DNA from: Mycobacteriales bacterium
Lineage (GTDB): Bacteria > Actinomycetota > Actinomycetes > Mycobacteriales > HKI-0501
Direction: 5' to 3'
Assembly (NCBI GenBank): GCA_036402915.1
Contig: DASWRY010000022.1
Location: forward strand, 19,629-83,628
Length of the DNA: 64,000 bases
The notes beneath the pieces were generated by a model that saw only the letters and a list, made by a program, of their open reading frames with translations, searched no databases and had not been told where the DNA came from. The translations under genes and the position numbers were made by a program. This document shows positions 40,536 to 57,999 of the stretch, piece after piece; position 1 is the stretch's first letter; each line of letters begins with the position of its first letter.

Positions 40536-40618
40536 GTGAACCCTCCCTTGGGTTCGCATGTGCCCTTCGGAGACGGCGTTGACCAGCATGGTGATCCGGG
40601 TCGCCCGCTCACAAGGGG

Positions 40619-41647: not shown

Positions 41648-41764
41648 CGCCACTCCCCGGTGTCCGCCCGCACGGAGCCTTGCACACACGGCCCGCGCTC
41701 CGAGGCGGTACGCGGCAACTGCTCCGCGTGATGTCGTCGGGGGAAGGGCCTGCGGAGAACGCTA

Positions 41765-41793
41765 GGGGGCGGGGGCAAAAAGGGGGGCGGGGG
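41765..41793 (+). other. canonical G-quadruplex motif G5-C-G5-CAAAAA-G6-C-G5
   Basis: G-runs occupy 41765-69, 41771-75, 41782-87 and 41789-93, in the spacer between the flippase stop (41871) and the GH26-like start (41647). Confidence 0.6.
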
Positions 41794-41870
41794 ACGGAGG
41801 ATCTGTGGACGAGAGTGGGAGGTGTGGACAGCGTTGACGGGGTGCCGCGGTGGGTGTAGATGAGGGCGAC

Positions 41871-45501: not shown

Positions 45502-46907
45502 GGCGCGGCCCGCCGCGCGAGGTCGTTGCGCCACAGCAGCCCGACCGCGACGAGGGACACCGTGAGCGGCATCCCGATCGCCGGGTACACGAGCATGTAG
45601 AACAGCGGCAGGAGCACCGTCAGCCCACCGGCCATCCCGATCGCCGTGAAGTCCCGCCGGTACCTCCACGCCACGGCGAGGAAGAACGCGATGTAGCAGA
45701 ACGCGCCGACGAACCCGTTCTGCAGCAACAGGTTCCAGAGCTGACCGGTGCTGCCCACGTCCCGGTTGCCGCACTGCGGGCAGTTGTCGGTGGCGCCGAG
45801 GGCGATCGAACGGTCGTTGCCGACCGTCTGCCGGGTGCCGCCGTAGCCGAGCACCGGGGAGCGCAGCGCCGCCCGGAACGCGACGCCGTTCTGGTAGCTC
45901 CGCGTCTCGTTGCTGTGCGGGTTGTGGAGCCGGTAGCCCACGACCGTGCGGAGCGGCGACAGCGCGAACACCGCCGCCAGCACCAGCACCACCACCGACA
46001 CCAGCGCGACGAGGGTCAGCCGCCCGCGCACGGCGAACCGTGCCCCCAGGTACGCCACCGACAGCCCGAGCCCGATCCACAGTCCCCGGTTCAGCGAGTA
46101 CACCACCGGGTACAGCGACACCGCCACCACGGCGAGCGCGAAGAGCCTCCGCGGGGGGGAGGCCCGGACGATCCAACCGACGGCGAACCACGGCAGCAGG
46201 AGGCTGTAGCAGTAGCCCCAGGTGTTCGTGTACAGATACGGCGCCGCCGGCCGGCTGATCCCGCCGAGGACCTCGTGGACCTGGGCGAACTTCACCGTCG
46301 TGTTGCGGCCGACGAACGCGTTGTCCAGCAGCGCTCGCGGCAGGACGTGGGACAGCGGGGTCGCGAATCCCGCCTGCGGGTACAGCGCGCCGAGCAGTCC
46401 ACCCGCGACGGTCCACAGGAACAGCACGCCCAGCAGTGAGACGACGAACCGGCGGGGGACCTCGCGCTCCGACATCGTCCCGGCCCAGAGCATGATCACG
46501 GTGATCGCCACGTACTGGAGGACGCGGAGCGCGAACGCCGCGAGCTTCCCGGACCCGGTCGGCGGCATCGTGCCCGGCGCGGTCACGCCCAGCATCACCG
46601 CGCCGAGCACCACCCACACCAGCAGGAGGGCCCACAGCCCGAAGCCGGGCGGGAAGCGCAGACGGCCCCGCCGCGTGAGCTGCACGGCCATCGGCACGGC
46701 CGAGCCGATGAACGCGAACTCCGTCAGGCCGAGCGCCCACCAGACCGGGTATCCGGCCAGCAGCACCACGAGCGGCCACCCCGCCGGGATGCGGATCCCG
46801 CCGAGTCCGCGGGGCGCGGGCACGCGGCGCGCGGCACGCCCGGCGACCGTGTCCGTGCCGGTCCACCCGCGCAGCGGTGGCGAGGTGGGGGCGTGTGTCG
46901 CGGACAC
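45498..46907 (-). CDS. O-antigen ligase/polymerase-like membrane protein (Wzy-type)
   Basis: About 10-12 hydrophobic segments. YSLNRGLWIGLGL resembles the Wzy_C core. There is a large extracytoplasmic loop containing CPQC. Confidence 0.7.
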   Translation of the reverse strand: MSATHAPTSPPLRGWTGTDTVAGRAARRVPAPRGLGGIRIPAGWPLVVLLAGYPVWWALGLTEFAFIGSAVPMAVQLTRRGRLRFPPGFGLWALLLVWVVLGAVMLGVTAPGTMPPTGSGKLAAFALRVLQYVAITVIMLWAGTMSEREVPRRFVVSLLGVLFLWTVAGGLLGALYPQAGFATPLSHVLPRALLDNAFVGRNTTVKFAQVHEVLGGISRPAAPYLYTNTWGYCYSLLLPWFAVGWIVRASPPRRLFALAVVAVSLYPVVYSLNRGLWIGLGLSVAYLGARFAVRGRLTLVALVSVVVLVLAAVFALSPLRTVVGYRLHNPHSNETRSYQNGVAFRAALRSPVLGYGGTRQTVGNDRSIALGATDNCPQCGNRDVGSTGQLWNLLLQNGFVGAFCYIAFFLAVAWRYRRDFTAIGMAGGLTVLLPLFYMLVYPAIGMPLTVSLVAVGLLWRNDLARRAAP

Positions 46908-46919
46908 GGCGTCGGCCGC

Positions 46920-48845
46920 TCAGCGCGAACGGATGCGGTCGTCGGGGGTACGGCCTGCCGTGGTGCCGTCGGGAGGCGCCTCCGCCTCCGGGAGCACGAC
47001 CTCCGGCGGGTCCGTGGCCGGCTCGCCGAGGTCCTGGGTGTCGTCGTCCTGCAGAGGCGGCACGGGGTTGCCCGCGGCGTCGACGACCGCGGACGTGCCC
47101 ACGGCACCCGCCGGCCCGGCGGCGGAAGGATTCGGCGCGGAGACGGGGGCCTGCGGGGTCGGCGGCACGGGGCCCTGCGGCGACACCGGGCCCTGCGGCG
47201 ACACCGGGCCCTGCGGCGGCACCGGGGCCTGCGGCGGCACCACGCCCCCGTCCAGCACCCGCACCGCGACACCCGCCGGAACCGCCCGCTCGGCAGGCCG
47301 GGCGCGCCGCGTACGGGAGCGGCGGCGCGACCTGCCGAGCTGGCCGACGACGACCGCGGCGACGAGCCGCGCCCGTACCTCCGCGAGACTCCGGACCGCC
47401 TCCTCGAGCGCGGGCAGCCGGGCCCGCTTGGTCTCCACGACGACCAGCACCGCGTCGGCGTGGGGAGCGAGCACCTGCGCGTCCACGGAGACCTCCGGGG
47501 GCGGGGCCTCGAACAGCGCGTACCCCGAGCCCATGTGGAGCCGCGCCACCAGGTCCCGCACCCGGTCCTCGCGCATCTCCCGGGACGGCAGGCCGTCGCC
47601 GTCGCCGTCGGGGTCGCCGGGGCCGAGCAGCCGGACCCCCGGGGACACCGCGACCGCCGCGTCCGCGATCGCGACCTCGCCGCGCAGTACCTCGGCGAGT
47701 CCGCGTCCGGGCGGCACGTCGAACGCACGCAGCGTCCACGATCCCGGGTCCGCACACACGATCAGCACCGGGATGCCGAACCGGTCCAGCGCCGCGGCCA
47801 GGTTCGCCGTCACGAGCCCCGCGGCCTGGCCCGGCGCCGCCCCGCACGTCACGACGATCCGCGCCCGGTTGGCCGGCAGCCCGGCCGCGTCGAGGGCGGA
47901 CGCGAGCGACCCACGCAAGCGGCTGAAGTCCCGGGCGGCCGGACTCTGCGGTGTCGCGAGCGCCGGAGGTCCACCGCGCCGGAGGTCCAGCAGCACCGGG
48001 ATCCCGGTCCGGTCCGCCACCTCGTCCGCGCGGTGGACCCGCGTGTCCCTGCGGTCGAGGAGCAGCGCGAGCAGCAGTCCGAGCAGGAGGCCCCCGCCGA
48101 GCCCCGTTCCCCCGGCGAGCACCGGGTCCGGCGAGCTCGGACGGGTGGGGAGCGCGGCGGCGGTGATGACCGAGCCGGGGTTCGGCTCGCCGGCCCGCAG
48201 GGTGGAGAGGCGCGCGCTGATCTGGCCGAGGTTGCTCTCGGCCACGTTGAGCTGCGCCTGCCCGCGGCGGGCGTCGGCGGAGGACGGCGGGAGGCCCGCG
48301 ATCGTGTCGGACAGCTGCTGCAGCTGCCCCAGCAGGGTGCGCTGCTGGCTCTCCAGCGCCGTGACCTGCGCGGCGATGTCGTCGTGGACCTTCGCGGCGC
48401 GCTGGTCCAGGTATGCGGTGGCGAACGCCTGCGACCCCGCCCGCGCCGTCGCGGGCTGTCCCGCGGAGTACGCGATGTCGAGCACCTGCGTGTTCGGGGG
48501 CACGCTCACCGCGACGCGCGCGGCGAGGTCGGCCGCGGAGAGCCCGGTCGTGATCGCGTGGCGCGCACGGTCCGCGACGACGAGGGACCGGACCAGCTGC
48601 GCCTCGGTGTCCATGTTGAGGCCGGAGATGGTGCGGGCACCGGACTGCGGCTGGTCCGCGGTGGTGCCGGTCGCCTGGACGAGGACCGAGGTCGTCGCTG
48701 TGTACACACGGTGCTGACGCACCGTGACCGCCGCCGTGACGGCCAGCGCCAGCAGGACCACCGCCACGATCACCCACCACCGGCGACGGATCCAGCCGGT
48801 GTAGTCGGCGATCGTGCGCGAGCCCTCGTCGTTCAACGATTCCAT
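46920..48845 (-). CDS. polysaccharide co-polymerase (Wzz N-terminal domain) fused to a degenerate BY-kinase-like P-loop domain and a Pro-rich tail
   Basis: Order of elements: Wzz-type TM1 (WWVIVAVVLLALAV), coiled-coil periplasmic region, TM2 (GGGLLLGLLLALLL). A CpsD/CapB-like domain follows, with IVVTCGAAPGQAAGLVTANLA in place of the ...PGEGKS... Walker A. Confidence 0.75.
   Translation of the reverse strand: MESLNDEGSRTIADYTGWIRRRWWVIVAVVLLALAVTAAVTVRQHRVYTATTSVLVQATGTTADQPQSGARTISGLNMDTEAQLVRSLVVADRARHAITTGLSAADLAARVAVSVPPNTQVLDIAYSAGQPATARAGSQAFATAYLDQRAAKVHDDIAAQVTALESQQRTLLGQLQQLSDTIAGLPPSSADARRGQAQLNVAESNLGQISARLSTLRAGEPNPGSVITAAALPTRPSSPDPVLAGGTGLGGGLLLGLLLALLLDRRDTRVHRADEVADRTGIPVLLDLRRGGPPALATPQSPAARDFSRLRGSLASALDAAGLPANRARIVVTCGAAPGQAAGLVTANLAAALDRFGIPVLIVCADPGSWTLRAFDVPPGRGLAEVLRGEVAIADAAVAVSPGVRLLGPGDPDGDGDGLPSREMREDRVRDLVARLHMGSGYALFEAPPPEVSVDAQVLAPHADAVLVVVETKRARLPALEEAVRSLAEVRARLVAAVVVGQLGRSRRRSRTRRARPAERAVPAGVAVRVLDGGVVPPQAPVPPQGPVSPQGPVSPQGPVPPTPQAPVSAPNPSAAGPAGAVGTSAVVDAAGNPVPPLQDDDTQDLGEPATDPPEVVLPEAEAPPDGTTAGRTPDDRIRSR
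47164..47235 (-). repeat. 18-nt tandem repeat x4 encoding (PVSPQG)-type units in the PCP tail
   Basis: The unit g[ag]caccgggccctgcggc occupies 47164-47181, 47182-47199, 47200-47217 and 47218-47235. Confidence 0.85.
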
Positions 48846-48976: not shown

Positions 48977-49876
48977 GTGCGCGTCGGGTACCTCGTGCAG
49001 AGCCACCGCGATCCGGAGCAGGTCGCGCGGCTCGTCCGGACGCTGCGCCGCGGGAGCCCGGACGGTGTCGTCCACGTCAGCCACGACTTCTCGTCGTCAC
49101 CACTGGATCTCACCGGTGTACCGGGAGTGATCGTCCGCCCCGCGAAGGGCGGCTATGCCGACTTCAGCCACGTGCGGCGGTACCTCGACGCGGTGGACGA
49201 CCTCGCCGCCGACCCGCCCGCCTGGGTCGTCGTCCTCACCGGCCAGGACTACCCGATCCGGCCGCTCGCCGAGGCGGAGGAGGACCTCGCCACCGGGGAC
49301 GCGGACGGGTACCTCGAGTACTTCCCCGCCCTCGACGCGGCCCGCAGCACGTGGCCGGTGCGCCGCGCCCGCTCGCGGTACCTGTTCCGCCACCGGCGCC
49401 TGATGCCGCTGTCGCCGGCGGCGCAACGCCGGCTGCGTGCGGTGCAGGCCCTCAACTACGTGCAGCCGCTGGTACGCGTCCACGTCACGCCCGCGCTGAC
49501 CGTCGGGATCCGGCGGCGGTCACCGTTCGGGCCGGGCTTCGAGCTGTACGGCGGCAGCGCGTACCACTCGCTGTCCTGGCCGTGCGTGGCGTACCTCCGG
49601 CAGTTCTGCGCCGCGCACCCGGAGATCCCGCGGTACTACGCCTCGACCCTGTCACCGGTGGAATCCATCGTGCAGACGATCCTGGTGAACAGCGGCCGTT
49701 TCCGGCTCGTCGACGACTGCCGGCGGTACTTCGACTTCCGCGGCAGCACGTTCAACCACCCGCGCGTCCTCGGCGTGGAGGACCTCCCCCGGGCACTCGC
49801 GAGCGGCGCCGACTTCGCCCGGAAGATCGACGACCCGGCCGTGCTCGACGCCCTGGACGCGCTGGTGCACCGGTGA
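48977..49876 (+). CDS. glycosyltransferase family 14 (Core-2/I-branching 'Branch' domain)
   Basis: Seen: MRVGYLVQSHRDPEQVARLVRTL...VVHVSHD, LTGQDYPIRPL and YGGSAYHSLSWPCVAYL, which follow the Branch-domain pattern. Confidence 0.7.
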   Translation: MRVGYLVQSHRDPEQVARLVRTLRRGSPDGVVHVSHDFSSSPLDLTGVPGVIVRPAKGGYADFSHVRRYLDAVDDLAADPPAWVVVLTGQDYPIRPLAEAEEDLATGDADGYLEYFPALDAARSTWPVRRARSRYLFRHRRLMPLSPAAQRRLRAVQALNYVQPLVRVHVTPALTVGIRRRSPFGPGFELYGGSAYHSLSWPCVAYLRQFCAAHPEIPRYYASTLSPVESIVQTILVNSGRFRLVDDCRRYFDFRGSTFNHPRVLGVEDLPRALASGADFARKIDDPAVLDALDALVHR

Positions 49877-50021: not shown

Positions 50022-50471
50022 GTGGTCATGCTCTTCGTCGGTTCGAGCGGCGGCCACCTGGCGCAACTGCTGGCCCTCCGCCCGTGGTGGGAGGACCGGG
50101 AACGGTACTGGGTCACGTTCCGGACCCCGGACGCCGAGTCGCTCCTCGCGGGCGAGCACGTCGACTGGGCGTACCACCCCACCACCCGCAACGTCCACAA
50201 CCTGCTGCGCAACACCGTCCTGGCGCGCAGGGTCCTCCGCCGCCGGCATCCCGACGCGATCGTCTCGACGGGCGCGGCGGTGGCGCTGCCGTTCTTCGTG
50301 CTGGGCCGCCTGGCCCGCATCCCCACCGTGTACCTCGAGGTCTGCGACCGGATCGAGACGCCGACGCTGACGGCCCGGCTCTGCCGTCCGTTCACCACCG
50401 CGATGCTGGTGCAGTGGGAGGAGCAGCAGGCGCTGTACCCCGGGTCCACCGTCGTCGGACGGCTGCTGTGA
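50022..50471 (+). CDS. Alg14-like / PssD-type glycosyltransferase membrane-associated subunit
   Basis: GTG at 50022 lies 7 nt after GGGAGG. Seen: LFVGSSGGHLAQLL..., HPDAIVSTGAAVALPFF and VYLEVCDRIETPTLTARL, matching the Alg14/PssD pattern. Confidence 0.75.
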   Translation: MVMLFVGSSGGHLAQLLALRPWWEDRERYWVTFRTPDAESLLAGEHVDWAYHPTTRNVHNLLRNTVLARRVLRRRHPDAIVSTGAAVALPFFVLGRLARIPTVYLEVCDRIETPTLTARLCRPFTTAMLVQWEEQQALYPGSTVVGRLL

Positions 50472-51919
50472 CCGCCCCGCTGGTCGTCGTGACGGCCGGC
50501 ACCGACGTCCACCCGTTCGACCGGCTCGTCGCCTGGGCAGACCGGTGGTGCGCCGAGTCGGGCGCGCGTTGCGTCGTGCAGTACGGGACCTCGGCGCCGC
50601 CGTCCGTCGCGGCAGGCGAGGCGTACGTCGACCACGCGCGGCTGCAGGAACTCCTCGCCGAGGCGGCGGTGGTCGTCTGCCACGGCGGCCCGGCGACGAT
50701 CGCCGAGGCCCGGCGCGGCGGCCACGTCCCGCTGGTCGTCCCCCGGGACCCGGCCCTGCGCGAGCACGTGGACGACCACCAGCAGCGCTTCGCGCGCCGC
50801 CTCGCCGCCGACGGCCTGATCCGGATGTGCCCCACCGAGGAGTCCCTGCGTGCCGCGCTCGGGGCCGCGCTGGCCGACCCCGAGGCGTACCACGCGCCGA
50901 CACCACGGGAGATCGCCGAGGGCGCCGCCCCGGTCGGTGAGGCGGTGCTCGCCGTGGGTGCGATCGTGGATGCGCTCGTCGCGCCGCGGCGACGGCGCGA
51001 CCTGCGCGTGCTGTTCGTCGGCGGGCTCGGCCGGAGCGGCTCGACGCTGGTGGACCGGATGCTCGCCCAGATGCCGGACGTGTGCTCGGTCGGCGAGCTG
51101 GTGCACGTCTGGGAGCGATCGGTCCGCGACAACGAGCTGTGCGGGTGTGGCGAGACGTTCGCCGCGTGCCCGTTCTGGCAGAAGGTCGGCAAGCTCGCCT
51201 TCGGCGGCTGGGACGCCGTGGACGTCGACGAGGTCCTGCGCCTGCGGGCGCGCGCCGACCGCACGCGCTTCGTCCCCGCGCTCGCGCTGCCCCGGCTGTC
51301 GGCCCGGCGGCGCGCGGATGTCGCCGCGTACACCTCCTACTACACCGCGATCTACGCGGCGGTCCGCGAGATCACCGGCTGCCGGGTCGTCGTGGACTCG
51401 AGCAAGCACGCCTCGCTCGCCTTCGCGCTGCGGTGGGCGGACGAGGCCGACATCCGGGTGCTGCACCTCGTCCGGGACGCGCGCGGCGTCGCGTACTCGT
51501 GGTCGAAACGGCTGCTGCGGCCGGAGGTGGTCGGGGGCGGGCAGTACATGCCGCAGTACTCCCCGGCCGAGGTCAGCGCGCTGTGGACCGCGCAGAACAT
51601 GGCGTTCGGCCTCCTCGGCGCGACGGGCGTCCCGGTGCTCCGTCTCCGGTACGAGGACGTGCTCGCCGATCCGGCGGGCACGCTGGGGCGTCTCCGGGAG
51701 CTGGCCGGGCTGCCGCCGCGGGACGCCGACTTCCTCGCCGGGGACGGCGTGCGCCTCGACGTCGACCACACCGTCGCGGGGAACCCGATGCGGTTCCGGA
51801 CCGGGCACGTCCCGCTCCGGCCGGACGAGGAGTGGCGGACCGGCCTGCCCCGGCGCGACCGGCGTCTCGTCGCCGCGCTCACCCTCCCGCTGCGGCTGCG
51901 GTACGGGTACCTGCCGTGA
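50468..51919 (+). CDS. fusion protein: Alg13-like/PssE-type glycosyltransferase catalytic half (Glyco_tran_28_C) plus C-terminal sulfotransferase domain
   Basis: The GTG overlaps the Alg14-like stop (GTGA). The N-terminal half has VVVTAGTDVHPFDRLV, VCHGGPATIAEA and REHVDDHQQRFA. The C-terminal half has the 5'-PSB FVGGLGRSGSTLV and the 3'-PB VLHLVRDARGVAYSW. Confidence 0.75.
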   Translation: MTAPLVVVTAGTDVHPFDRLVAWADRWCAESGARCVVQYGTSAPPSVAAGEAYVDHARLQELLAEAAVVVCHGGPATIAEARRGGHVPLVVPRDPALREHVDDHQQRFARRLAADGLIRMCPTEESLRAALGAALADPEAYHAPTPREIAEGAAPVGEAVLAVGAIVDALVAPRRRRDLRVLFVGGLGRSGSTLVDRMLAQMPDVCSVGELVHVWERSVRDNELCGCGETFAACPFWQKVGKLAFGGWDAVDVDEVLRLRARADRTRFVPALALPRLSARRRADVAAYTSYYTAIYAAVREITGCRVVVDSSKHASLAFALRWADEADIRVLHLVRDARGVAYSWSKRLLRPEVVGGGQYMPQYSPAEVSALWTAQNMAFGLLGATGVPVLRLRYEDVLADPAGTLGRLRELAGLPPRDADFLAGDGVRLDVDHTVAGNPMRFRTGHVPLRPDEEWRTGLPRRDRRLVAALTLPLRLRYGYLP

Positions 51920-52812
51920 ACTGCCCGCCGGTCGACGTCGTCGTACCGACGCGGGACCGGCCGGAGCTGCTGCGCGAGGCGGTCGACGCGGCGCTCGCGC
52001 AGGACTATCCGGGAACCGTCGCGGTGTACGTCGTGGACGACCGCAGCGAGCGGCCGCCGTCCGCCGATCCCCGCGTGGTGACCCTGGCGAACACCCGCAC
52101 GCCCGGTCTCGCCGGCGCCCGGAACACCGGGATCCTCGCCGGGAACGGGGAGTTCGTGGCCTTCTGCGACGACGACGACGTGTGGCTGCCGGGCAAGCTC
52201 CGCAGGCAGGTGGAGGCGCTGACGGTCAGCGGGGCGGACGTCGCGTGCTGCGGAATCCGGATCTCCTGCGGCGGCGGGACCGTGGACCGCACCCTGCGCG
52301 CCGAGCGCATCACGCTGCCCGACCTTCTCCGGTCACGGCTGACCGAGCTGCACCCGTCCACCTTCGTCCTGCGGCGTGCCGCGCTGGCGGGCGGGCTCGG
52401 CCTCGTCGACGAGGAGATCCCCGGCAGCTACGGCGAGGACTACGAGCTGTTGCTCCGCGCGGCCCGGCGGGGGGCGATCCTCAACGTCCCCGAGGTGCTC
52501 GCCGAGGTGCGCTGGCACCCGCGGTCGTACTTCGGCGGTCGCTGGGACACGATCTCGACCGCGCTGCAGTGGCTGCTGGAACGGTACCCCGAGTTCGCGG
52601 CCGAGCCCCGGGGACGGGCGCGGGTGACCGGGCAGATCGCGTTCGCGCGGGCCGCCGCGGGCGCGCGGGGCGACGCCGTGCGCTGGGCCGGCCGGACGCT
52701 GCGGGGCAACGCGCGCGAGCCCCGCGCGTACCTCGCGCTGGCGGTGGCCTCGGGGGCGGTGAGCGCCGAGGGGGTCCTCGCGAGGCTCCACACCCGGGGA
52801 CGGGGTCTCTAA
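51916..52812 (+). CDS. glycosyltransferase family 2
   Basis: The start overlaps the upstream stop (GTGA). Seen: VDVVVPTRDRPELL, VVDDRS, ARNTGI and FCDDDDVW (a DxD motif). Confidence 0.8.
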   Translation: MNCPPVDVVVPTRDRPELLREAVDAALAQDYPGTVAVYVVDDRSERPPSADPRVVTLANTRTPGLAGARNTGILAGNGEFVAFCDDDDVWLPGKLRRQVEALTVSGADVACCGIRISCGGGTVDRTLRAERITLPDLLRSRLTELHPSTFVLRRAALAGGLGLVDEEIPGSYGEDYELLLRAARRGAILNVPEVLAEVRWHPRSYFGGRWDTISTALQWLLERYPEFAAEPRGRARVTGQIAFARAAAGARGDAVRWAGRTLRGNAREPRAYLALAVASGAVSAEGVLARLHTRGRGL

Positions 52813-52863: not shown

Positions 52864-54048
52864 TTGTCCGACGTCACGCTCGACGGTGCCGCCCTGGACG
52901 ACCTCGAACTGCTCCTCGGCGGCGCGTACGCGCCCCTGGACCGGTACCTCTCCGACGCGGAGGCAGCGGCCGGCACGCTGCCCGACGGGACCCCCGTCCC
53001 GCTCCGGCTGACGCGCCCGGCCGAGGGCGAGGCCGTCCTGCGAGACCCGGAGGGCGCGCCGGTGGCCCGGCTCTGCGCGGACGGCCGCGTCGAGGCGGTC
53101 GCGCCGCGGGAGGTCGTCACGTTCGGCCGGCTGCGGCGTCCCGCCCGGGAGGTCGCGGCGGAGGTCACCGGCCCCGTGCTCGGGGTACCGGTCGACGGGC
53201 CGCTCTCCCGCCGCGCGCTGGACCGGATCACGGCGGCCGGACTGCCGGTGCTGCTGCTCCCGCTCGTCGGCGCCGACCGGCACGGCGACCCCGACGCGCT
53301 GATCCGGATGACGCTCGCCGCCGCCGGGGAGCTGCCGGAGGGCACGCGCGTCGTCGCGGTGCCCCTGTCCCGGCGCCCCGAGCCGGTCGAGTCCCTGCTG
53401 CGCGCGCACGTGGCCGCGGCGTACGGCGCGACCGAGGTGCTGTCCCCCGCCGGTGACGACCCGTCCCCCGACTACCCCGCCGCGATCGCCGCGGAGCTCG
53501 CGCGTCCGCGCGGGCTGACCGTGTTCTTCACCGGCCTCTCGGGCTCCGGCAAGTCCACCGTCGCCCGCGCGCTGGCCGGGCGTCTCGCCGAGCGCGGCGA
53601 CCGCACGGTGAGCCTGCTCGACGGTGACGTGGTCCGCCGCAGCCTGTCCGCGGGCCTCGGGTTCTCCCGGGAGGACCGGGACCGCAACGTCACCCGCATC
53701 GGCTGGGTGGCCGCCGAGGTCACCCGGCACGGCGGGCTCGCGATCTGCGCGCCGATCGCCCCGTACGCGTCGGTGCGCGCGGAGGTCCGGCGCCTCGTCG
53801 AGCGGTACGGCGACTTCGTGCTGGTCCACGTGGCGACTCCGCTCGAGGAGTGCGAGCGGCGGGACCGCAAGGGCCTGTACGCGAAGGCCCGGGCCGGCGA
53901 GATCCCCGCGTTCACCGGCATCTCCGATCCGTACGAGGTACCGGACGACGCGGACCTCGCGATCGACACCACCCACCTGACCGTTGCCGAGGCGACCGAG
54001 GCCGTGCTGCGGCTGCTCGTCGACCGCGGCCTGCTGCGGGAGAGCTGA
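52864..54048 (+). CDS. cysC: adenylyl-sulfate (APS) kinase with N-terminal degenerate ATP-sulfurylase-like domain
   Basis: TTG at 52864 lies 7 nt after GAGGAG. The N-terminal ~200 aa follow a Sat pattern (DLELLLGGAYAPLDRYL; LLLPLVGADRHGD). VDGPLSRRAL replaces the QxRNPxHRxH loop. The C-terminal half has FTGLSGSGKST, LDGDVVR and FSREDRDRN. Confidence 0.8.
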   Translation: MSDVTLDGAALDDLELLLGGAYAPLDRYLSDAEAAAGTLPDGTPVPLRLTRPAEGEAVLRDPEGAPVARLCADGRVEAVAPREVVTFGRLRRPAREVAAEVTGPVLGVPVDGPLSRRALDRITAAGLPVLLLPLVGADRHGDPDALIRMTLAAAGELPEGTRVVAVPLSRRPEPVESLLRAHVAAAYGATEVLSPAGDDPSPDYPAAIAAELARPRGLTVFFTGLSGSGKSTVARALAGRLAERGDRTVSLLDGDVVRRSLSAGLGFSREDRDRNVTRIGWVAAEVTRHGGLAICAPIAPYASVRAEVRRLVERYGDFVLVHVATPLEECERRDRKGLYAKARAGEIPAFTGISDPYEVPDDADLAIDTTHLTVAEATEAVLRLLVDRGLLRES

Positions 54049-54050
54049 CC

Positions 54051-55019
54051 GTGGACTGGACGATGGCCGTGGCAGGCTTCGTCGTCGGCATCGTCGTGGG
54101 GCTGACGGGCATGGGCGGCGGCGCGCTGATGACGCCGATGCTCGTGCTCGTGTTCGGCATCCAGCCGCTCGCCGCGGTGTCGTCGGACCTCCTGGCGTCG
54201 TTCGTCATGAAGCCCGTCGGCAGCCTCGTGCACCTCCGCCGCGGCACGGTGCACCTGAAGATGGTCGGCTGGCTCATGCTCGGCTCGGTGCCGTCGGCCT
54301 TCGTGGGCGTGCTGATCCTCAAGACGCTCGGCGACAGCGCCGGGGTGCAGTCCGCCGTGAAGATCGCCCTCGGCGTCGCCCTGCTGCTGGCGACGGCCGG
54401 GCTGATCGGCAAGGCGTACCTGCAGATGCGCGACACGGCCCGGCGCCGCCGCGGGGAGCTGCCGCCCGCGCCCCCCGCGAACGCTCCCGTGCCAGTCCGC
54501 CCGCTCGCGACCGTGCTCGTCGGCGTCCTCGGCGGCCTGGTCGTCGGCATGACGTCGGTCGGCTCCGGGTCGCTGATGATCATCGCGCTGATGGCGCTGT
54601 ACCCCGCGCTCTCCGCGTCGCGCCTCGTCGGGACGGACCTGGTCCAGGCCGTGCCGCTGGTGGGCGCGGCCGCGTTCGGGCACGCGATGTTCGGCGACCT
54701 GCAGCTCGACGTCACCGGGGCGCTGCTCGTCGGTGCGATCCCGGGCGTGTACCTGGGCTCGCGGATCTCCTCCCGCGCGCCGCAGGGCGTCGTCCGGCGG
54801 GCCCTGACCCTCGTGCTGATCGCCTCGGGCCTCAAGCTCCTCGGCGTCGGCACGGTCGCGCTCGGCTGGGCGCTCCTCGCGGTGTGCGTGGCCGGGCCGC
54901 TGCTGTGGGGCTGGGCACGCACGCGCCAGGGCCTGGCGCCGCTGGCCCGCCTCGAGCGGCGCGGACCCGTGGGCGCGGCACACTCCAGAGACGACCAGGC
55001 CCCGGTCACCACACGGTGA
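54051..55019 (+). CDS. TauE/SafE family sulfite/organosulfonate-type anion exporter (DUF81)
   Basis: GTG at 54051 lies 2 nt after the cysC stop. There are two repeated halves with GLTGMGGGALMTP and GMTSVGSGSLMI motifs and about 8 TM segments. Confidence 0.8.
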   Translation: MDWTMAVAGFVVGIVVGLTGMGGGALMTPMLVLVFGIQPLAAVSSDLLASFVMKPVGSLVHLRRGTVHLKMVGWLMLGSVPSAFVGVLILKTLGDSAGVQSAVKIALGVALLLATAGLIGKAYLQMRDTARRRRGELPPAPPANAPVPVRPLATVLVGVLGGLVVGMTSVGSGSLMIIALMALYPALSASRLVGTDLVQAVPLVGAAAFGHAMFGDLQLDVTGALLVGAIPGVYLGSRISSRAPQGVVRRALTLVLIASGLKLLGVGTVALGWALLAVCVAGPLLWGWARTRQGLAPLARLERRGPVGAAHSRDDQAPVTTR

Positions 55020-55043: not shown

Positions 55044-56309
55044 TCAGCCCGCCTGGACCACGATCGCCGCGGCGACGGTGCGGTTGGTGGCCTCGTCCAC
55101 GAGGATGAAGCCGCCCGTGGAGCGGTTCCGGCGGTACTCGTCCACGAACAGCGGCTGGGTGGTGCGCAGGGTCACCCGGCCGATCTCGTTGAGCCGCAGT
55201 GCGCCGGGGTGCTCGTCCCGGTGCAGGGTGTTGACGTCCAGCCGGTACGCGATGTCGCGGACGACCGTGCGCACGGTCCGGGTGGTGTGCTTGAGGGTGT
55301 ACTTGCGGCCGGGCTCGAGCGCGGCCTGCTCGTCCATCCAGCAGATCATCGCCTCGACGTCCTGCGCGGAGTGCGGGGCGTTGTGCGGGCGGCAGATCAT
55401 GTCCCCCCGGGACACGTCGAGCTCGTCGGCGAGGCGTACCACGACCGACATCGGCGGGAACGCCTCGTCCACCGGCCCGTCCGCGGTGTCGATGGCCTCG
55501 ATCCGGGTGGTGAACCCGGACGGGAGCACCATCACCTCGTCGCCCGGCTTCATCACGCCACCGGCGACCGTGCCGGCGTACCCGCGGTAGTCCGGGTGGG
55601 CCGCCGACTGCGGCCGGATGACGTACTGGACCGGGAACCGGACGTCGACCAGGTTCCGGTCGGAGGCGACGTGGACGTTCTCCAGGTGGTGCAGCAGGGA
55701 CGGCCCGTCGTACCAGGGCATGTTGTCCGACCGGCTGACGATGTTGTCCCCGTGGAGCGCCGAGATCGGCAGGACCGTCAGGTCGGGCACGTCCAGCTTG
55801 GTGGCGAACGCGGTGAACTCGTCCTTGATGGCCTCGAACACGTCCTGGGAGTAGTCGACCAGGTCCATCTTGTTCACGGCCAGCACCAGGTGCGGCACCC
55901 GCAGCAGGGTGACCAGGAACGCGTGCCGCCGCGACTGCTCCACCAGCCCCTTGCGGGCGTCCACCAGCACGATGGCGAGGTCCGCGGTGGAGGCGCCGGT
56001 GACCATGTTGCGGGTGTACTGGATGTGCCCCGGGGTGTCGGCGATGACGAACTTGCGCCGCGGGGTGGCGAAGTACCGGTACGCCACGTCGATCGTGATG
56101 CCCTGCTCCCGCTCGGCCCGCAGGCCGTCGGTGAGCAACGCCAGGTTCGTGTACTCGTCGCCGCGGTCGCGGCTGGTCCGCTCCACCGCGTCCAGCTGGT
56201 CGGTGAAGATCGACTTCGAGTCGTACAGCAGACGCCCGATGAGGGTCGACTTGCCGTCGTCGACCGAGCCCGCCGTGGCGAACCGCAACATGTCCATGTC
56301 GTGAGCCAT
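55044..56309 (-). CDS. cysN: sulfate adenylyltransferase subunit 1 (GTPase), no fused APS-kinase domain
   Basis: Seen: GSVDDGKSTLIGRLL, DTPGH and NKMD. About 420 aa, ending after the EF-Tu-like beta-barrel domains. Confidence 0.9.
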   Translation of the reverse strand: MAHDMDMLRFATAGSVDDGKSTLIGRLLYDSKSIFTDQLDAVERTSRDRGDEYTNLALLTDGLRAEREQGITIDVAYRYFATPRRKFVIADTPGHIQYTRNMVTGASTADLAIVLVDARKGLVEQSRRHAFLVTLLRVPHLVLAVNKMDLVDYSQDVFEAIKDEFTAFATKLDVPDLTVLPISALHGDNIVSRSDNMPWYDGPSLLHHLENVHVASDRNLVDVRFPVQYVIRPQSAAHPDYRGYAGTVAGGVMKPGDEVMVLPSGFTTRIEAIDTADGPVDEAFPPMSVVVRLADELDVSRGDMICRPHNAPHSAQDVEAMICWMDEQAALEPGRKYTLKHTTRTVRTVVRDIAYRLDVNTLHRDEHPGALRLNEIGRVTLRTTQPLFVDEYRRNRSTGGFILVDEATNRTVAAAIVVQAG

Positions 56310-56311
56310 GC

Positions 56312-57217
56312 CTAGAAGTACCCCTCGCGCTTGCGGTCCTCCATGGCGGACTCGCTGACCTTGTCGTCCCCGCGGGTGGCCCCGCGTTCGGTGAGCCGGG
56401 TCGCGGCGATCTCCGCGATGACCTTCTCGGTGGTGTCCGCGTCCGAGGCCACCGCCGCGGTGAGCGTCGCGTCCCCGACCGTGCGGTAGCGCACCGACGC
56501 GGTGAACACCTCGTCACCCTCACCCGGGACCGCGAACTCGTTGGCGGCCATCAGCATCCCGTCCCGCCGGAACACCTCCCGGGTGTGCGCGAAGTAGATC
56601 GACGGGATCTCGATCCCCTCGGCGTGGATGTACTCCCAGATGTCGAGCTCGGTCCAGTTCGAGAGCGGGAACACCCGGATGCTCTCGCCCAGGTGCACCC
56701 GGCCGTTGTAGAGGTTCCACAGCTCCGGCCGCTGGTTCTTCGGGTCCCACTGGCCGAACTCGTCCCGGAAGGAGAACACCCGCTCCTTCGCCCGCGCCTT
56801 CTCCTCGTCGCGGCGCGCACCCCCGAACAGCGCGTCGAACCGGTGCTTCTCGGCGGCCTCGAGCAGCACCGGGGTCTGGATCCGGTTCCGCGACCCGCCC
56901 GGCTCCTCCCGCACCAGCCCCCGCTCGAGCGCCTCGGGCACGCTGGCCACGATCAGCTGCACGCCCAGCTCGGCGACCCGCTTGTCGCGGAACTCGAGCA
57001 CCTCGGGGAAGTTGTGCCCGGTGTCCACGTGCATCACCGGGAACGGGATCGGCGCCGGCGCGAACGCCTTCTCGGCGATCCGCAGCATCACGATCGAGTC
57101 CTTGCCGCCGGAGAACAGCAGGCACGGACGCTGCATCTCCGCCGCGACCTCACGGAAGACGTGGACCGCCTCGGCCTCGAGGGTGTCCAGCTGGCTGAGC
57201 CGGTAGTTCGATGTCAT
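56312..57217 (-). CDS. cysD: sulfate adenylyltransferase subunit 2
   Basis: Seen: LLFSGGKDSIVML (PP-loop), HVDTGHNFPE and PLSNWTELDIW. The start overlaps the cysQ stop (ATGA). Confidence 0.9.
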   Translation of the reverse strand: MTSNYRLSQLDTLEAEAVHVFREVAAEMQRPCLLFSGGKDSIVMLRIAEKAFAPAPIPFPVMHVDTGHNFPEVLEFRDKRVAELGVQLIVASVPEALERGLVREEPGGSRNRIQTPVLLEAAEKHRFDALFGGARRDEEKARAKERVFSFRDEFGQWDPKNQRPELWNLYNGRVHLGESIRVFPLSNWTELDIWEYIHAEGIEIPSIYFAHTREVFRRDGMLMAANEFAVPGEGDEVFTASVRYRTVGDATLTAAVASDADTTEKVIAEIAATRLTERGATRGDDKVSESAMEDRKREGYF

Positions 57218-57999
57218 CGGGGGTACTGGTCTCTCATCCGGTCGAGGAGCGCGTCGGCGACCGGCGCCGCGGCGACGAGCAGGTCGGGCAGGAGCGGGTC
57301 GGGCTGGTTGTACCGGAGCGGCGAACCGTCGAGGCGGCAACATCGCAGGCCCGCGGCCACGGCCACGGCGACCGGCGCGGCGGAGTCCCACTCGTACTGG
57401 CCGCCGCCGTGCACGTACGCGTCGACCTCGCCGAGGACGACGGCGGACACCTTCACCCCGGCGGACCCCATCGGCACCAGCTCGGCGCCGAGGTCCCCGG
57501 CCAGCGCGGCGACGAACTCGGGTGGGCGGGTGCGGCTCACCGCCAGGCGGAGGGGGCCGTCGGCGCGCGGCGGCACCACCGGCGGGGCGTCGGTCGCGAG
57601 CGTGGTGCCGCGCGCGGGCATCGCCACGGCGCCGGCGGTCAGCGAGCCGCCGGACCACAGCGCCACGTGGACAGCCCAGTCGCTGCGGCCCTCCTCGGAG
57701 AACTCCCGCGTGCCGTCGAGCGGATCCACGATCCACACCCGGTCGGCCGACACCCGGCCCGCCGGGTCGGCGCCCTCCTCGGACAGCACCGCGTCGCCGC
57801 GGCACAGCTCCGCGAGCCGGGCCACCAGGTACTCGTGCGCGGCCCGGTCCCCCGCCGCCTTCAGTGCGGCCGGGTCCGCGAAGCCCACGTCGGCCCGCAC
57901 CCGGAGCAGGAGCGCGCCCGCCTCGTCCGCGAGCCGCCGGGCGAGCGCAGCGTCACCTGCGACACGACCGAGCGGTCGTGTCGTCGGATCGGTCTGCAT
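57214..57999 (-). CDS. cysQ: 3'(2'),5'-bisphosphate nucleotidase (PAP phosphatase, inositol monophosphatase family)
   Basis: Seen: EEGA..., WIVDPLDGTREF and YEWDSAAP. The ATG overlaps the stop of the upstream sugar transferase (TGATG). Confidence 0.75.
   Translation of the reverse strand: MQTDPTTRPLGRVAGDAALARRLADEAGALLLRVRADVGFADPAALKAAGDRAAHEYLVARLAELCRGDAVLSEEGADPAGRVSADRVWIVDPLDGTREFSEEGRSDWAVHVALWSGGSLTAGAVAMPARGTTLATDAPPVVPPRADGPLRLAVSRTRPPEFVAALAGDLGAELVPMGSAGVKVSAVVLGEVDAYVHGGGQYEWDSAAPVAVAVAAGLRCCRLDGSPLRYNQPDPLLPDLLVAAAPVADALLDRMRDQYPR

What the first reader, a model, noticed from the sequence alone, without database searches (positions are those of the whole stretch)
50022..51919. 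Alg14-like subunit plus an Alg13-like catalytic half fused to a sulfotransferase domain
The 149-aa Alg14/PssD-like protein is GTGA-coupled to a 484-aa protein.

- The first ~160 aa of the larger protein are an Alg13/PssE-type Glyco_tran_28_C half (HGGPATIAEA, EHVDDHQ).
- The remaining ~320 aa are a sulfotransferase (GGLGRSGSTLV 5'-PSB, LVRDARGVAYSW 3'-PB).

In known split systems (eukaryotic Alg13/14, rhizobial PssD/E, pneumococcal Cps14F/G) the catalytic half is a small stand-alone protein. A covalent GT-sulfotransferase would place sulfation at the membrane on the lipid-linked intermediate immediately after the second sugar is added. Sulfation would then occur on the cytoplasmic face before flipping, where PAPS is available. 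I do not recall this domain fusion being described.
Basis: partly seen in the sequence, partly recalled or inferred. Interest (0 to 1): 0.7.

Follow-up and report, generated by a model that had tools for sequence, protein, structure and literature searches.

The report
Glycosyltransferase half fused to sulfotransferase
The gene is real and encodes half of a two-part sugar-adding enzyme joined to a sulfate-adding enzyme, inside an actinobacterial gene cluster for a probably sulfated surface polysaccharide; the join is a common, repeatedly arising variant of a gene pair that is more often separate, so it is a useful lead, not a new kind of system.

Summary
A 149-aa PssD/Alg14-like ORF (50022-50471) is GTGA-coupled to a 483-aa ORF (50468-51919; not 484 aa).

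The larger protein has two halves:
- **N-terminal half:** a PssE/Alg13-type Glyco_tran_28_C domain.
- **C-terminal half:** a PAPS-type sulfotransferase with invariant 5'-PSB and 3'-PB motifs and a TPST/CurM-ST-like fold.

The fusion is not an artefact. More than 100 database clusters carry it, including Catellatospora isolates, and so does a syntenic 84%-identical MAG.

It sits in a Wzx/Wzy polysaccharide cluster with a priming transferase, a GT2, a second sulfotransferase and a full PAPS supply (CysDN, CysC, CysQ, TauE). The cluster resembles the Actinoplanes wps-1 cluster described in 2026.

The main new result concerns the state of the gene pair in 80 related genomic loci:
- 24 are fused.
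- 38 have the GT half and the sulfotransferase as separate genes with an ATGA/GTGA overlap (all Micromonospora and Pilimelia loci).
- 18 have them kilobases apart.

Fused and split states interleave on a tree of the sulfotransferase domains. ST-GT2, PssE-ST-GT2 and ST-ST fusions also occur.

So the fusion is a recurrent stop-loss variant of a conserved module. I found no paper describing it. Interest is moderate.

The parts
50022..50471 (+). PssD/Alg14-like N-terminal (acceptor-side) half of a split GT-B glycosyltransferase, 149 aa, GSSGGH glycine loop, no predicted transmembrane helix
   Evidence: Pfam Alg14 5.7e-8; NCBIfam PssD 3.5e-30; WelK N-terminal half 2e-19. A homologue lies directly upstream of the GT half in 79/80 related loci. 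Hydropathy scan.
50468..51919 (+). 483-aa fusion ORF: PssE/Alg13-type GT half plus sulfotransferase. Its GTG start overlaps the PssD stop, and its stop overlaps the GT2 start.
   Evidence: An identical protein is in a JGI metagenome (P0001), and more than 100 full-length fusion clusters exist. AF2 model mean pLDDT 90.3.
50468..50938 (+). Glyco_tran_28_C (nucleotide-sugar-binding Rossmann half), aa 1-157. HGG 72-74, E99, D102, H104 and Q105 are invariant.
   Evidence: Pfam and NCBIfam. Invariant columns in alignment A1. MurG and Alg13 hits in PDB. GT-B C-domain matches by Foldseek.
50939..51004 (+). Junction, aa 158-179. Contains a hydrophobic helix (aa 158-171) that aligns with the C-terminal helix of MurG, then the short linker APRRRRDL. 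It corresponds to the stop/start overlap of the split orthologues.
   Evidence: pLDDT 55-63 with helix 158-171. Alignment to MurG 3s2u. KD 1.82. Against the 84%-identical L081 this stretch (counted over aa 146-180) has 8 synonymous and 6 non-synonymous differences and an in-frame 2-codon indel. Split junction sequences.
51005..51916 (+). PAPS-type sulfotransferase domain, aa 180-483
   Evidence: Sulfotransfer_3 2.1e-13. Profile hits to OLS-ST 1e-9, CurM-ST 8e-7, SULT1A 1e-6 and TPST 1e-5. Foldseek TPST1/2 at E 1e-7, prob 1.0.
51020..51049 (+). 5'-phosphosulfate-binding loop GGLGRSGSTL (aa 185-194)
   Evidence: Sequence. R189, S190 and G191 conserved in 80/80 homologues and T193 in 79/80.
51140..51169 (+). 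Invariant cysteine triad C225, C227, C234 (CGCGETFAAC): a possible metal site
   Evidence: 80/80 conservation. Invariant in A1. Function untested.
51467..51502 (+). 3'-phosphate-binding motif LVRDARGVAYSW (aa 334-345)
   Evidence: R336 79/80, D337 79/80, S344 72/80.
51916..52812 (+). GT2 glycosyltransferase, GTGA-coupled to the fusion gene
   Evidence: Glycos_transf_2 3.8e-22. Overlap shown. A homologue is present in 74/80 loci, usually directly downstream of the sulfotransferase.
48977..49876 (+). 299-aa protein of unknown family at the head of the + strand operon
   Evidence: No Pfam, NCBIfam or PDB hit. Present in 11/80 loci.
52864..54048 (+). APS kinase (CysC) with an N-terminal degenerate ATP-sulfurylase-like domain
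   Evidence: APS_kinase 1.4e-56. The L081 orthologue hits PUA_2 and APS_kinase.
54051..55019 (+). TauE/SafE-family anion permease
   Evidence: TauE 3.8e-43.
55044..57217 (-). CysN (55044-56309) and CysD (56312-57217), sulfate adenylyltransferase
   Evidence: GTP_EFTU 1.5e-42; PAPS_reduct 7.1e-43.
57214..57900 (-). CysQ-like PAP phosphatase (Inositol_P family)
   Evidence: Inositol_P 3.3e-30.
57999..59510 (-). Priming polyprenyl-phosphate sugar-phosphate transferase (Bac_transf)
   Evidence: Bac_transf 4.9e-65.
40619..48845 (-). Export and modification block. GH26-like protein (40619-41605); Wzx flippase (41871-43421); stand-alone sulfotransferase ST2 (43385-44308); kinase-like protein (44272-45534); Wzy (45498-46907); Wzz co-polymerase (46920-48845).
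   Evidence: Pfam. Same domain order as wpsE/G/H/I/J/K of Actinoplanes missouriensis (PMC13390465). Homologues in 38-63 of 80 loci.

Best explanation
ORF B is a genuine bifunctional protein.

**GT half.** Its first ~170 residues are the nucleotide-sugar-binding half of a split MurG-like (GT-B) glycosyltransferase. This half pairs with the separately encoded PssD/Alg14-like half to add a sugar, probably the second one, to the undecaprenyl-diphosphate-linked primer made by the Bac_transf enzyme of the cluster.

**Sulfotransferase half.** The last ~300 residues are a PAPS-dependent sulfotransferase. It sulfates the growing lipid-linked repeat unit on the cytoplasmic face. After that the GT2 extends the unit, Wzx flips it and Wzy/Wzz polymerise it.

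**PAPS supply.** PAPS is made and recycled by the adjacent CysDN, CysC and CysQ genes.

**Origin of the fusion.** It arose by loss of the stop codon in a 4-nt ATGA/GTGA overlap between a pssE-like gene and the next gene, the sulfotransferase. It is one state of a module (pssD, pssE, ST, GT2) that is widespread in Actinomycetota and that switches repeatedly between fused and split.

**Shown:** domain identities, conserved catalytic and PAPS-binding residues, reality and recurrence of the fusion, and cluster content.

**Inferred:** the acceptor, the order of steps, the physical complex with PssD, and that the product is a sulfated polysaccharide.
For: **Domains.** Pfam, NCBIfam, PDB-profile and Foldseek results agree. 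The AF2 model has pLDDT 90.3, with two well-folded domains joined by a low-confidence linker.

**Active-site conservation.** HGG, E99, D102, H104 and Q105 are invariant in the GT half. R189, S190, G191 and E210 are conserved in 80/80 sulfotransferase homologues, T193, K313 and R336 in 79/80, and S344 in 72/80.

**Not an artefact.**
- One search lists about 118 full-length fusion clusters at 44-100% identity, including three Catellatospora species.
- The syntenic MAG locus L081 is fused, with an in-frame 2-codon indel and a mix of synonymous and non-synonymous changes across the junction.

**Context.** The cluster carries a priming transferase, GT2, Wzx, Wzy, Wzz, a second sulfotransferase, CysC, TauE, CysN, CysD and CysQ. 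PssD, the fusion and GT2 are chained by GTGA overlaps.

**Conservation of the module.** Across the 80 loci, PssD is present in 79, GT2 in 74, ST2 in 63, Wzy in 63 and Wzx in 58.

**Fusion as stop-loss.** 38/80 loci have the two genes separate with an ATGA/GTGA overlap exactly at the position of the window's linker, 24/80 are fused and 18/80 are distant. RefSeq annotates the Micromonospora sulfotransferases as separate ~320-aa proteins. Fused and split states interleave on the sulfotransferase tree. Other fusions of the same sulfotransferase exist: ST-GT2, PssE-ST-GT2 and ST-ST.

**Genetics of a similar cluster.** Mutants of the Actinoplanes wps-1 cluster and of its adjacent sulfurylase/APS-kinase gene are defective in sporangium matrix formation (PMC13390465).
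Against: - No biochemical data exist for any member. Sulfate has not been demonstrated chemically in an actinomycete polysaccharide from such a cluster; PMC13390465 says verification is pending.
- The NCBIfam equivalog cut-offs for PssD (105 vs 110) and PssE (52 vs 120) are not reached, so the transferred sugar and the position of the GT step in the pathway are unknown.
- The closest structural relatives of the sulfotransferase domain are protein-tyrosine and polyketide sulfotransferases, not carbohydrate ones, although identity is only 15-21%.
- The inter-domain arrangement is not predicted with confidence (pTM 0.64).
- My attempt to model the complex with PssD failed.
- In 18/80 loci the sulfotransferase is far from pssE, so a tight GT-ST coupling is not universal.
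Confidence: 0.7

Rival explanations
1. The fused ORF is a sequencing or assembly frameshift that merges two genes which are really separate, as in Micromonospora.
For: In 38/80 related loci the two genes are separate and overlap by 4 nt, so a single-base error would fuse them.
Against: An identical 483-aa protein is found on other JGI contigs (P0001). An 84%-identical fused orthologue occurs in an independent, fully syntenic MAG, with an in-frame 6-nt indel in the linker. There are several 72%-identical fused clusters, one on a 162-kb contig. Fused genes occur in isolate genomes of Catellatospora species. The window's linker contains no remnant stop.
Confidence: 0.02
2. The sulfotransferase domain acts on something other than the lipid-linked glycan: a protein tyrosine (TPST/RaxST-like), a lipid or a small molecule. 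On this view the fusion is only an operon accident.
For: The top Foldseek hits are TPST1/2, CurM-ST and OLS-ST, not carbohydrate sulfotransferases. In 18/80 loci the sulfotransferase is not next to pssE.
Against: Fold-level similarity is at 15-21% identity only. All 80 loci examined keep the sulfotransferase within 10 kb of the pssE-like gene, next to polysaccharide-assembly genes such as GT2, Wzx and Wzy. It is fused in different lineages to two different glycosyltransferases, PssE and GT2. No precursor-peptide, PKS or lipid genes lie in the cluster.
Confidence: 0.1
3. The sulfotransferase does sulfate the glycan, but at a later step (the completed repeat unit, or a sugar added by GT2 or another GT) rather than directly after the PssD/E step. 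The fusion then serves only to recruit it to the membrane-associated GT complex.
For: The same sulfotransferase is fused to the downstream GT2 in other lineages (P0167, P0170). The order PssD-PssE-GT2-ST occurs in L067. Nothing in the data fixes the acceptor.
Against: The commonest gene order places the sulfotransferase between pssE and GT2, with coupled translation. This is weak evidence only.
Confidence: 0.18

Closest known systems
Split GT-B glycosyltransferases PssD/PssE (Rhizobium leguminosarum), Cps14F/Cps14G (S. pneumoniae) and eukaryotic Alg14/Alg13
   Same: Two-gene arrangement with overlapping reading frames. The N-terminal half has a glycine loop and the C-terminal half carries the HGG...E..D.HQ nucleotide-sugar motif. 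Pfam Alg14 and Glyco_tran_28_C score above their cut-offs. pssD and pssE are described as 'halves' of one GT with overlapping frames (PMC9961541).
   Different: Here the catalytic half carries a ~300-aa sulfotransferase at its C-terminus. NCBIfam PssD/PssE equivalog cut-offs are not reached. There is no Alg14-type transmembrane anchor. The sugar specificity is unknown.
WelK/GelK/SpsK-type single-chain beta-1,4-glucuronosyltransferases of sphingan clusters
   Same: Both window proteins match the two halves of the WelK profile (2e-19 and 2.7e-19). This shows that the family exists in alternative fusion states.
   Different: In WelK the two GT halves are fused to each other. Here they stay separate and the C-terminal half is fused to a different enzyme. 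Scores are far below the WelK cut-off (70 vs 400).
wps-1 cluster of Actinoplanes missouriensis (PMC13390465, 2026), a proposed actinomycete sulfated-EPS cluster
   Same: The domain order GH26-like, Wzx, sulfotransferase, kinase-like, Wzy, Wzz is the same. There is an adjacent sulfurylase/APS-kinase family gene, and a second sulfotransferase lies next to a GT2.
   Different: wps-1 is described with a stand-alone sulfotransferase (WpsB) flanked by GT2 and GT26 genes. No PssD/PssE pair and no fusion are reported. Sequence-level orthology to the window was not tested: Actinoplanes did not appear in the top 120 hits.
xss (synechan) cluster of Synechocystis PCC 6803 (PMC8205485)
   Same: A Wzx/Wzy-type cluster with two sulfotransferases of different subfamilies. 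The repeat unit and its modifications are built on the cytoplasmic side.
   Different: It is cyanobacterial. The sulfotransferases are stand-alone, there is no split GT28-like pair, and no dedicated PAPS genes are listed among the xss genes in the passages I read.
TPST1/2, CurM-ST and OLS-ST sulfotransferases (PDB 5wri, 3ap1, 4gbm, 4gox)
   Same: Same fold (Foldseek prob 1.0). The 5'-PSB loop is of the (P/G)RSGS/TTL type, with Arg instead of Lys. A DxSK-like lysine and an R..S 3'-PB motif are present.
   Different: Identity is 15-21%. Their acceptors are protein tyrosine or ACP-bound beta-hydroxyacyl groups. They are not fused to a GT. The invariant Cys triad lies in a stretch that none of the printed PDB alignments covers.

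Membership tests
Alg14/PssD (PF08660; NCBIfam NF041549) | Profile score above the curated cut-off | tested here: inconclusive
   Pfam Alg14 33.4 bits against a cut-off of 27: met. NCBIfam PssD equivalog 105.3 bits against 110: narrowly not met.
Alg14/PssD (PF08660; NCBIfam NF041549) | Encoded next to, and co-translated with, a separate Glyco_tran_28_C half | tested here: met
   GTGA overlap at 50468-50471. The same adjacency is seen in 79/80 loci.
Alg14/PssD (PF08660; NCBIfam NF041549) | N-terminal membrane anchor (a feature of eukaryotic Alg14) | tested here: not met
   The stop-to-stop ORF allows only 160 aa. No 19-residue window is convincingly transmembrane: the KD maximum of 1.73 falls in the Rossmann core.
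Alg13/PssE (PF04101; NCBIfam NF041548) | Profile score above the curated cut-off | tested here: inconclusive
   Pfam Glyco_tran_28_C 44.8 bits against 22: met. NCBIfam PssE equivalog 52 bits against 120: not met.
Alg13/PssE (PF04101; NCBIfam NF041548) | Conserved nucleotide-sugar-binding residues (HGG, E..D.HQ) | tested here: met
   H72, G73, G74, E99, D102, H104 and Q105 are invariant in 26 diverse fusion proteins. They align to MurG and Alg13.
Alg13/PssE (PF04101; NCBIfam NF041548) | Small stand-alone polypeptide | tested here: not met
   The domain is the first ~170 aa of a 483-aa protein. Stand-alone orthologues exist in 56/80 related loci.
Alg13/PssE (PF04101; NCBIfam NF041548) | Transfers the second sugar to a polyprenyl-PP-sugar | not testable with these tools
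   Inferred only from family membership and the presence of a Bac_transf priming enzyme.
PAPS-dependent sulfotransferase (PF13469 Sulfotransfer_3) | Profile score above the curated cut-off | tested here: met
   51.5 bits against 27. Sulfotransfer_1 also scores 23 against 22.
PAPS-dependent sulfotransferase (PF13469 Sulfotransfer_3) | 5'-PSB loop and 3'-PB motif | tested here: met
   GRSGST is at 188-193 and R336...S344 is present. R189, S190 and G191 are conserved in 80/80 homologues, T193 and R336 in 79/80, and S344 in 72/80. The loop is identical in type to the RSGSTL of CurM-ST and OLS-ST.
PAPS-dependent sulfotransferase (PF13469 Sulfotransfer_3) | Sulfotransferase fold | tested here: met
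   The AF2 model has pLDDT above 90 over the domain. Foldseek finds TPST1/2, CurM-ST, OLS-ST, Stf9 and Stf0.
PAPS-dependent sulfotransferase (PF13469 Sulfotransfer_3) | Sulfuryl transfer from PAPS to a defined acceptor | not testable with these tools
   Only contextual support: CysDN, CysC and CysQ are adjacent.
Actinomycete wps-1-type sulfated-EPS cluster (PMC13390465) | Gene set Wzx, sulfotransferase, kinase-like, Wzy, Wzz in this order, plus GH26, GT2 with a second sulfotransferase, and a sulfurylase/APS-kinase gene | tested here: met
   Met by domain order. Sequence orthology to the AMIS genes was not tested.
Actinomycete wps-1-type sulfated-EPS cluster (PMC13390465) | Product is a sulfated polysaccharide | not testable with these tools
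   Not yet verified chemically, even in A. missouriensis.

The most novel reading that the evidence does not exclude
PssD, PssE, the sulfotransferase and GT2 may form an obligate assembly line on the membrane. In it, sulfation of the Und-PP-disaccharide happens in mid-assembly and is required before the next sugar can be added. Sulfate would then be a built-in biosynthetic checkpoint rather than a late decoration. The repeated independent fusions (PssE-ST, ST-GT2, PssE-ST-GT2) would be the evolutionary trace of selection for substrate channelling. If so, the module would show when and where sulfate enters a bacterial Wzx/Wzy polysaccharide. It would also give a compact two-protein tool for making sulfated lipid-linked disaccharides.
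Probability: 0.25. Interest if true: 0.6.

Novelty: new variant of a known kind. Interest (0 to 1): 0.4.

Why it matters
Sulfated polysaccharides are valued biomaterials. In bacteria their biosynthesis is genetically defined mainly for cyanobacterial synechan. Their existence in actinomycetes was only proposed in 2026 and is not yet chemically verified.

This locus, and the hundreds of relatives found here, show a compact and widely conserved actinobacterial module. In it a sulfotransferase is genetically, and often covalently, tied to specific glycosyltransferases and to a private PAPS supply.

The natural fused and split versions occur in culturable genera: Catellatospora is fused and Micromonospora is split. 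That offers a ready-made comparison for testing two questions: when sulfation occurs in a Wzx/Wzy pathway, and whether physical coupling matters.

The fusion itself is an easy evolutionary step, so the advance is incremental rather than conceptual.

Tried and rejected
1. **Modelling the PssD-fusion complex.** I folded a head-to-tail concatenation of the two window proteins as a single sequence. The result was pLDDT 34.9 and is uninformative. No multimer tool or paired alignment was available.
2. **Linking the sulfotransferase domain to the experimentally studied WpsB of Actinoplanes.** A sulfotransferase-only homologue search returned only Micromonospora, Pilimelia, Catellatospora and metagenomic hits in its top 120. 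A cluster-member look-up gave no useful names. Orthology to WpsB therefore remains an inference from gene order.
3. **Literature searches for a described GT28C/Alg13-sulfotransferase fusion, or any GT-ST fusion in bacterial polysaccharide synthesis.** Nothing relevant was found.
4. **Frameshift artefact.** Rejected.
5. **An Alg14-type membrane anchor in the PssD-like protein.** Not found.
6. **The 299-aa protein upstream.** No family or PDB match.
7. **The putative metal site (Cys triad).** It could not be checked geometrically because model coordinates are not exposed.

**Caveats on the analysis**
- The 80 loci were retrieved with motifs from the GT half, so the fused/split/distant proportions are biased towards clusters that contain a pssE-like gene.
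- The NJ tree has no support values.
- Some unusual database fusions may be gene-calling artefacts.
Full report
**1. Observation**

The window is ~75% G+C. Third-position GC analysis gives a clean gene map.

ORF A (50022-50471, +, 149 aa) matches Pfam Alg14 at 5.7e-8, above the gathering score. It matches NCBIfam PssD/Cps14F at 3.5e-30 (105 bits against a cut-off of 110).

ORF B starts at the GTG at 50468, which overlaps the TGA of ORF A (GTGA). It runs to 51919, giving 483 aa rather than 484. It has two domain hits:
- Glyco_tran_28_C (aa 56-145, 1.8e-11), with NCBIfam PssE at 7e-14 and the C-terminal half of WelK at 2.7e-19.
- Sulfotransfer_3 (aa 182-416, 2.1e-13).

**2. The fusion is real**

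GC3 stays at 0.87-1.0 in every 30-codon block, and there is no stop in the frame.

A search of 5.8 billion protein clusters returned an identical protein plus about 118 further full-length clusters (461-565 aa, ~99% coverage, 44-84% identity). Nearly all carry both PF04101 and PF13469. They include RefSeq/UniRef proteins of Catellatospora bangladeshensis, C. tritici and C. coxensis.

The 84%-identical orthologue lies in an independent MAG (GCA_036009525.1, locus L081). That locus is syntenic with the window as far as pth-rplY-prs. Across aa 146-180, which span the junction, the two genes differ by 8 synonymous and 6 non-synonymous codons and an in-frame 2-codon indel. A frameshift artefact is excluded.

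**3. The domains look functional**

In an alignment of 26 diverse fusion proteins the following are invariant:
- GT half: HGG (72-74), E99, D102, H104, Q105.
- Sulfotransferase half: G186, G188, R189, S190, G191, T193, E210, K313, R336.

Across 80 sulfotransferase domains, whether fused or not, conservation is as follows:
- 80/80: R189, S190, G191, E210.
- 79/80: T193, K313, R336.
- 72/80: S344.

An AlphaFold2 model built on the alignment has mean pLDDT 90.3. Only residues ~150-178 are poorly defined.

Foldseek against the PDB gives TPST1/2 (E 1e-7, prob 1.0), CurM-ST, OLS-ST, Stf9 and Stf0 for the C-terminal domain. It gives C-terminal Rossmann domains of GT-B enzymes for the N-terminal domain.

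A profile search of PDB sequences agrees: OLS-ST 1e-9, CurM-ST 8e-7, SULT1A 1e-6, TPST 1e-5, MurG 8e-6, Alg13 0.01. It also shows the same RSGSTL loop in CurM-ST and OLS-ST.

E210 and K313 lie where TPST and CurM-ST have their catalytic Glu and Lys. That correspondence comes from my own knowledge of those structures and was not measured here.

**4. Junction anatomy**

Helix 158-171 (AVLAVGAIVDALVA) is the most hydrophobic 19-mer of the protein. It aligns with the C-terminal helix of MurG.

In GT-B enzymes this last helix crosses back onto the N-terminal domain, and in Alg13 the C-terminal helix mediates binding to Alg14. Both points are established knowledge quoted from memory. The sulfotransferase domain would therefore be tethered, through about 8 residues (APRRRRDL), right at the PssD/PssE interface. 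This is an inference.

**5. Context**

On the + strand, three genes are chained by GTGA overlaps: PssD, the fusion and a GT2 (51916-52812). A 299-aa protein of unknown family precedes them.

Downstream lie:
- CysC (52864-54048)
- a TauE permease (54051-55019)
- CysN and CysD (55044-57217, -)
- a CysQ-like phosphatase (57214-57900, -)
- a Bac_transf priming transferase (57999-59510, -)

Upstream on the - strand lie:
- a weak GH26-like protein (40619-41605)
- Wzx (41871-43421)
- a second, stand-alone sulfotransferase (43385-44308)
- a kinase-like protein (44272-45534)
- Wzy (45498-46907)
- Wzz (46920-48845)

Together this is a complete Wzx/Wzy-type cluster with two sulfotransferases and its own PAPS synthesis and PAP removal.

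**6. Related loci: the main new result**

A scan of one genome per species (GTDB) found 426 relatives, and the best 80 loci were fetched. Almost all are Actinomycetota: Catellatospora, Micromonospora, Pilimelia, Nocardiopsis, Marinactinospora, Streptomyces specialis, and Acidimicrobiales, Jiangellales, Frankiales, Gaiellales and Euzebya MAGs.

tblastn with the window proteins shows how often each neighbour is conserved:

| Window protein | Loci with a homologue (of 80) |
|---|---|
| PssD | 79 |
| GT2 | 74 |
| ST2 | 63 |
| Wzy | 63 |
| Kinase-like | 62 |
| Wzx | 58 |
| Wzz | 39 |
| CysQ | 27 |

The state of the GT half and the sulfotransferase differs among loci:
- **Fused, 24 loci.** One ORF (Catellatospora, many MAGs, the window).
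- **Adjacent but separate, 38 loci.** The stop of the pssE-like gene overlaps the start of the sulfotransferase gene as ATGA/GTGA, a few codons before the VLFVGG...RSGS loop. All Micromonospora and Pilimelia loci are in this group.
- **Distant, 18 loci.** The sulfotransferase lies 3-7 kb from pssE (Nocardiopsis, Marinactinospora and others).

RefSeq independently annotates the Micromonospora sulfotransferases as separate 310-340-aa proteins. In a sulfotransferase-only search about 100 of the best 120 clusters are stand-alone.

On a neighbour-joining tree of the sulfotransferase domains, fused and split loci interleave, with at least five fused groups (no support values). This indicates repeated fusion or fission.

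An exhaustive HMMER search of 1.84 billion representatives gave 12,562 hits. Among the best 150, roughly 30-35 are PssE-ST fusions and most of the rest are stand-alone.

It also revealed other fusion types:
- ST-GT2 (P0167, P0170)
- PssE-ST-GT2 (P0137, P0135)
- ST-ST (P0121, P0122, P0139, P0184)
- NTP_transf_5-ST-GT2 (P0212)

The window's fusion is thus one state of a fusion-prone, translationally coupled operon. It is most simply produced by loss of the stop in a 4-nt overlap.

**7. Comparison with the literature**

PssD and PssE are described as overlapping genes encoding 'halves' of one glycosyltransferase in the R. leguminosarum EPS pathway (PMC9961541).

For Synechocystis synechan, the xss Wzx/Wzy cluster has two stand-alone sulfotransferases. 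The repeat unit, including modifications, is built on the cytoplasmic side before flipping (PMC8205485).

A June 2026 paper on Actinoplanes missouriensis describes the wps-1 cluster (PMC13390465). Its genes are:
- WpsA: GT2
- WpsB: sulfotransferase
- WpsC: GT26
- WpsE: GH26
- WpsG: Wzx
- WpsH: sulfotransferase
- WpsI: kinase-like
- WpsJ: Wzy
- WpsK: Wzz
- adjacent AMIS_7390: sulfurylase/APS-kinase family

Mutants have defective sporangia, and the authors propose a sulfated EPS that has not yet been verified.

The window's GH26-like, Wzx, ST2, kinase-like, Wzy, Wzz block and its CysC match this domain order. The wps-1 description has neither a PssD/PssE pair nor a fusion.

None of the six relevant literature searches found a described GT28-C/Alg13-sulfotransferase fusion.

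The statement in these papers that bacterial sulfated polysaccharides are confined to cyanobacteria is too strong. Sulfated polymers are reported for Cobetia and Pontiella (titles listed).

**8. Mechanism and confidence**

The most likely sequence is:
1. The Bac_transf enzyme primes undecaprenyl phosphate.
2. The PssD-like protein plus the GT half of the fusion add the next sugar.
3. The tethered sulfotransferase uses locally made PAPS to sulfate the lipid-linked oligosaccharide on the cytoplasmic face.
4. GT2, and possibly the 299-aa protein, extend the unit, and ST2 adds a second sulfate.
5. Wzx flips the unit, and Wzy/Wzz polymerise it.

What is shown:
- the domain identities and conserved active-site residues;
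- that the fusion is real and recurrent;
- the cluster content and its conservation.

What is inferred:
- the acceptor and the order of steps;
- the physical complex with PssD;
- that the product is sulfated.

Overall confidence is about 0.7. That the sulfotransferase acts immediately after the PssD/E step I put at no more than about 0.5.

**9. Verdict**

The finding is correct as an observation and largely correct in interpretation. However, the covalent fusion is a frequent, easily arising variant of a module that is more often split. It is already present in databases under generic names.

It counts as a new variant of a known kind, and interest is moderate (0.4). Its main value is as an entry point to actinobacterial sulfated polysaccharides and to the timing of sulfation in Wzx/Wzy pathways.

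Noticed in passing
window 51140-51169 (aa 225-234 of the fusion): Three cysteines (C225, C227, C234, motif CGCGxxFxxC) are invariant in all 80 sulfotransferase homologues, fused or not. H434 is also invariant, and H213 is conserved in 60/80. This may be a structural metal site. None of the printed PDB alignments to CurM-ST, OLS-ST or SULT covers this stretch.
   Followed up: partly
window 40619-48845 (-) and 52864-54048 (+): The block GH26-like, Wzx, sulfotransferase, kinase-like, Wzy, Wzz, together with the APS-kinase gene, has the same domain order as wpsE/G/H/I/J/K and AMIS_7390 of Actinoplanes missouriensis (PMC13390465). The whole locus appears to be a wps-1-type cluster.
   Followed up: partly
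window 44272-45534 (-); repeat at 45353-45437: The kinase-like protein has a weak TCAD9 hit and an HGDWNAGN motif. The ORF as called begins with a (PPG)x8 collagen-like repeat encoded by a 9-nt tandem repeat. The true start may lie downstream of the repeat.
   Followed up: no
window 47160-47259 (-), C-terminal part of the Wzz protein: An 18-nt tandem repeat encodes a PQGPV-type proline-rich repeat. Where a BY-kinase Walker A motif would be expected, the sequence reads GAAPGQAAG with no lysine, so the kinase part may be degenerate or absent.
   Followed up: no
window 52864-54048 (+): The APS kinase carries a ~210-aa N-terminal domain with only faint ATP-sulfurylase/PUA_2 similarity. It is probably a degenerate, non-catalytic sulfurylase-like domain, since CysDN is encoded separately nearby.
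   Followed up: no
L008, L013, L030, L053, L054, L076, L081 and several Micromonospora loci (L025, L026, L033, L036, L037): Many related clusters carry one or two extra paralogues of the same sulfotransferase. These lie either directly after the fusion or split pair, or on the opposite strand before pssD. The number of sulfation steps therefore varies between lineages.
   Followed up: partly
proteins P0167, P0170, P0137, P0135, P0121, P0122, P0139, P0184, P0212: The same sulfotransferase family occurs in several other fusions: ST-GT2, PssE-ST-GT2, tandem ST-ST, and NTP_transf_5-ST-GT2. Some of these may be gene-calling artefacts in metagenomes.
   Followed up: partly
L038 (MAG labelled Verrucomicrobiales), L039 (MAG labelled Burkholderiales): These two loci are typical of the actinobacterial cluster but sit in MAGs assigned to other phyla. 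The cause is either mis-binning or horizontal transfer.
   Followed up: no
window 37635-40559 (-): A 974-aa protein with PKD domains flanks the cluster. A homologue is found near the cluster in 19/80 loci. It may be a secreted or cell-surface partner of the polysaccharide.
   Followed up: no
window 48977-49876 (+): A 299-aa protein at the head of the pssD operon has no Pfam, NCBIfam or PDB match. It recurs in 11/80 loci, always near pssD. It could be an undescribed glycosyltransferase or modifying enzyme.
   Followed up: partly
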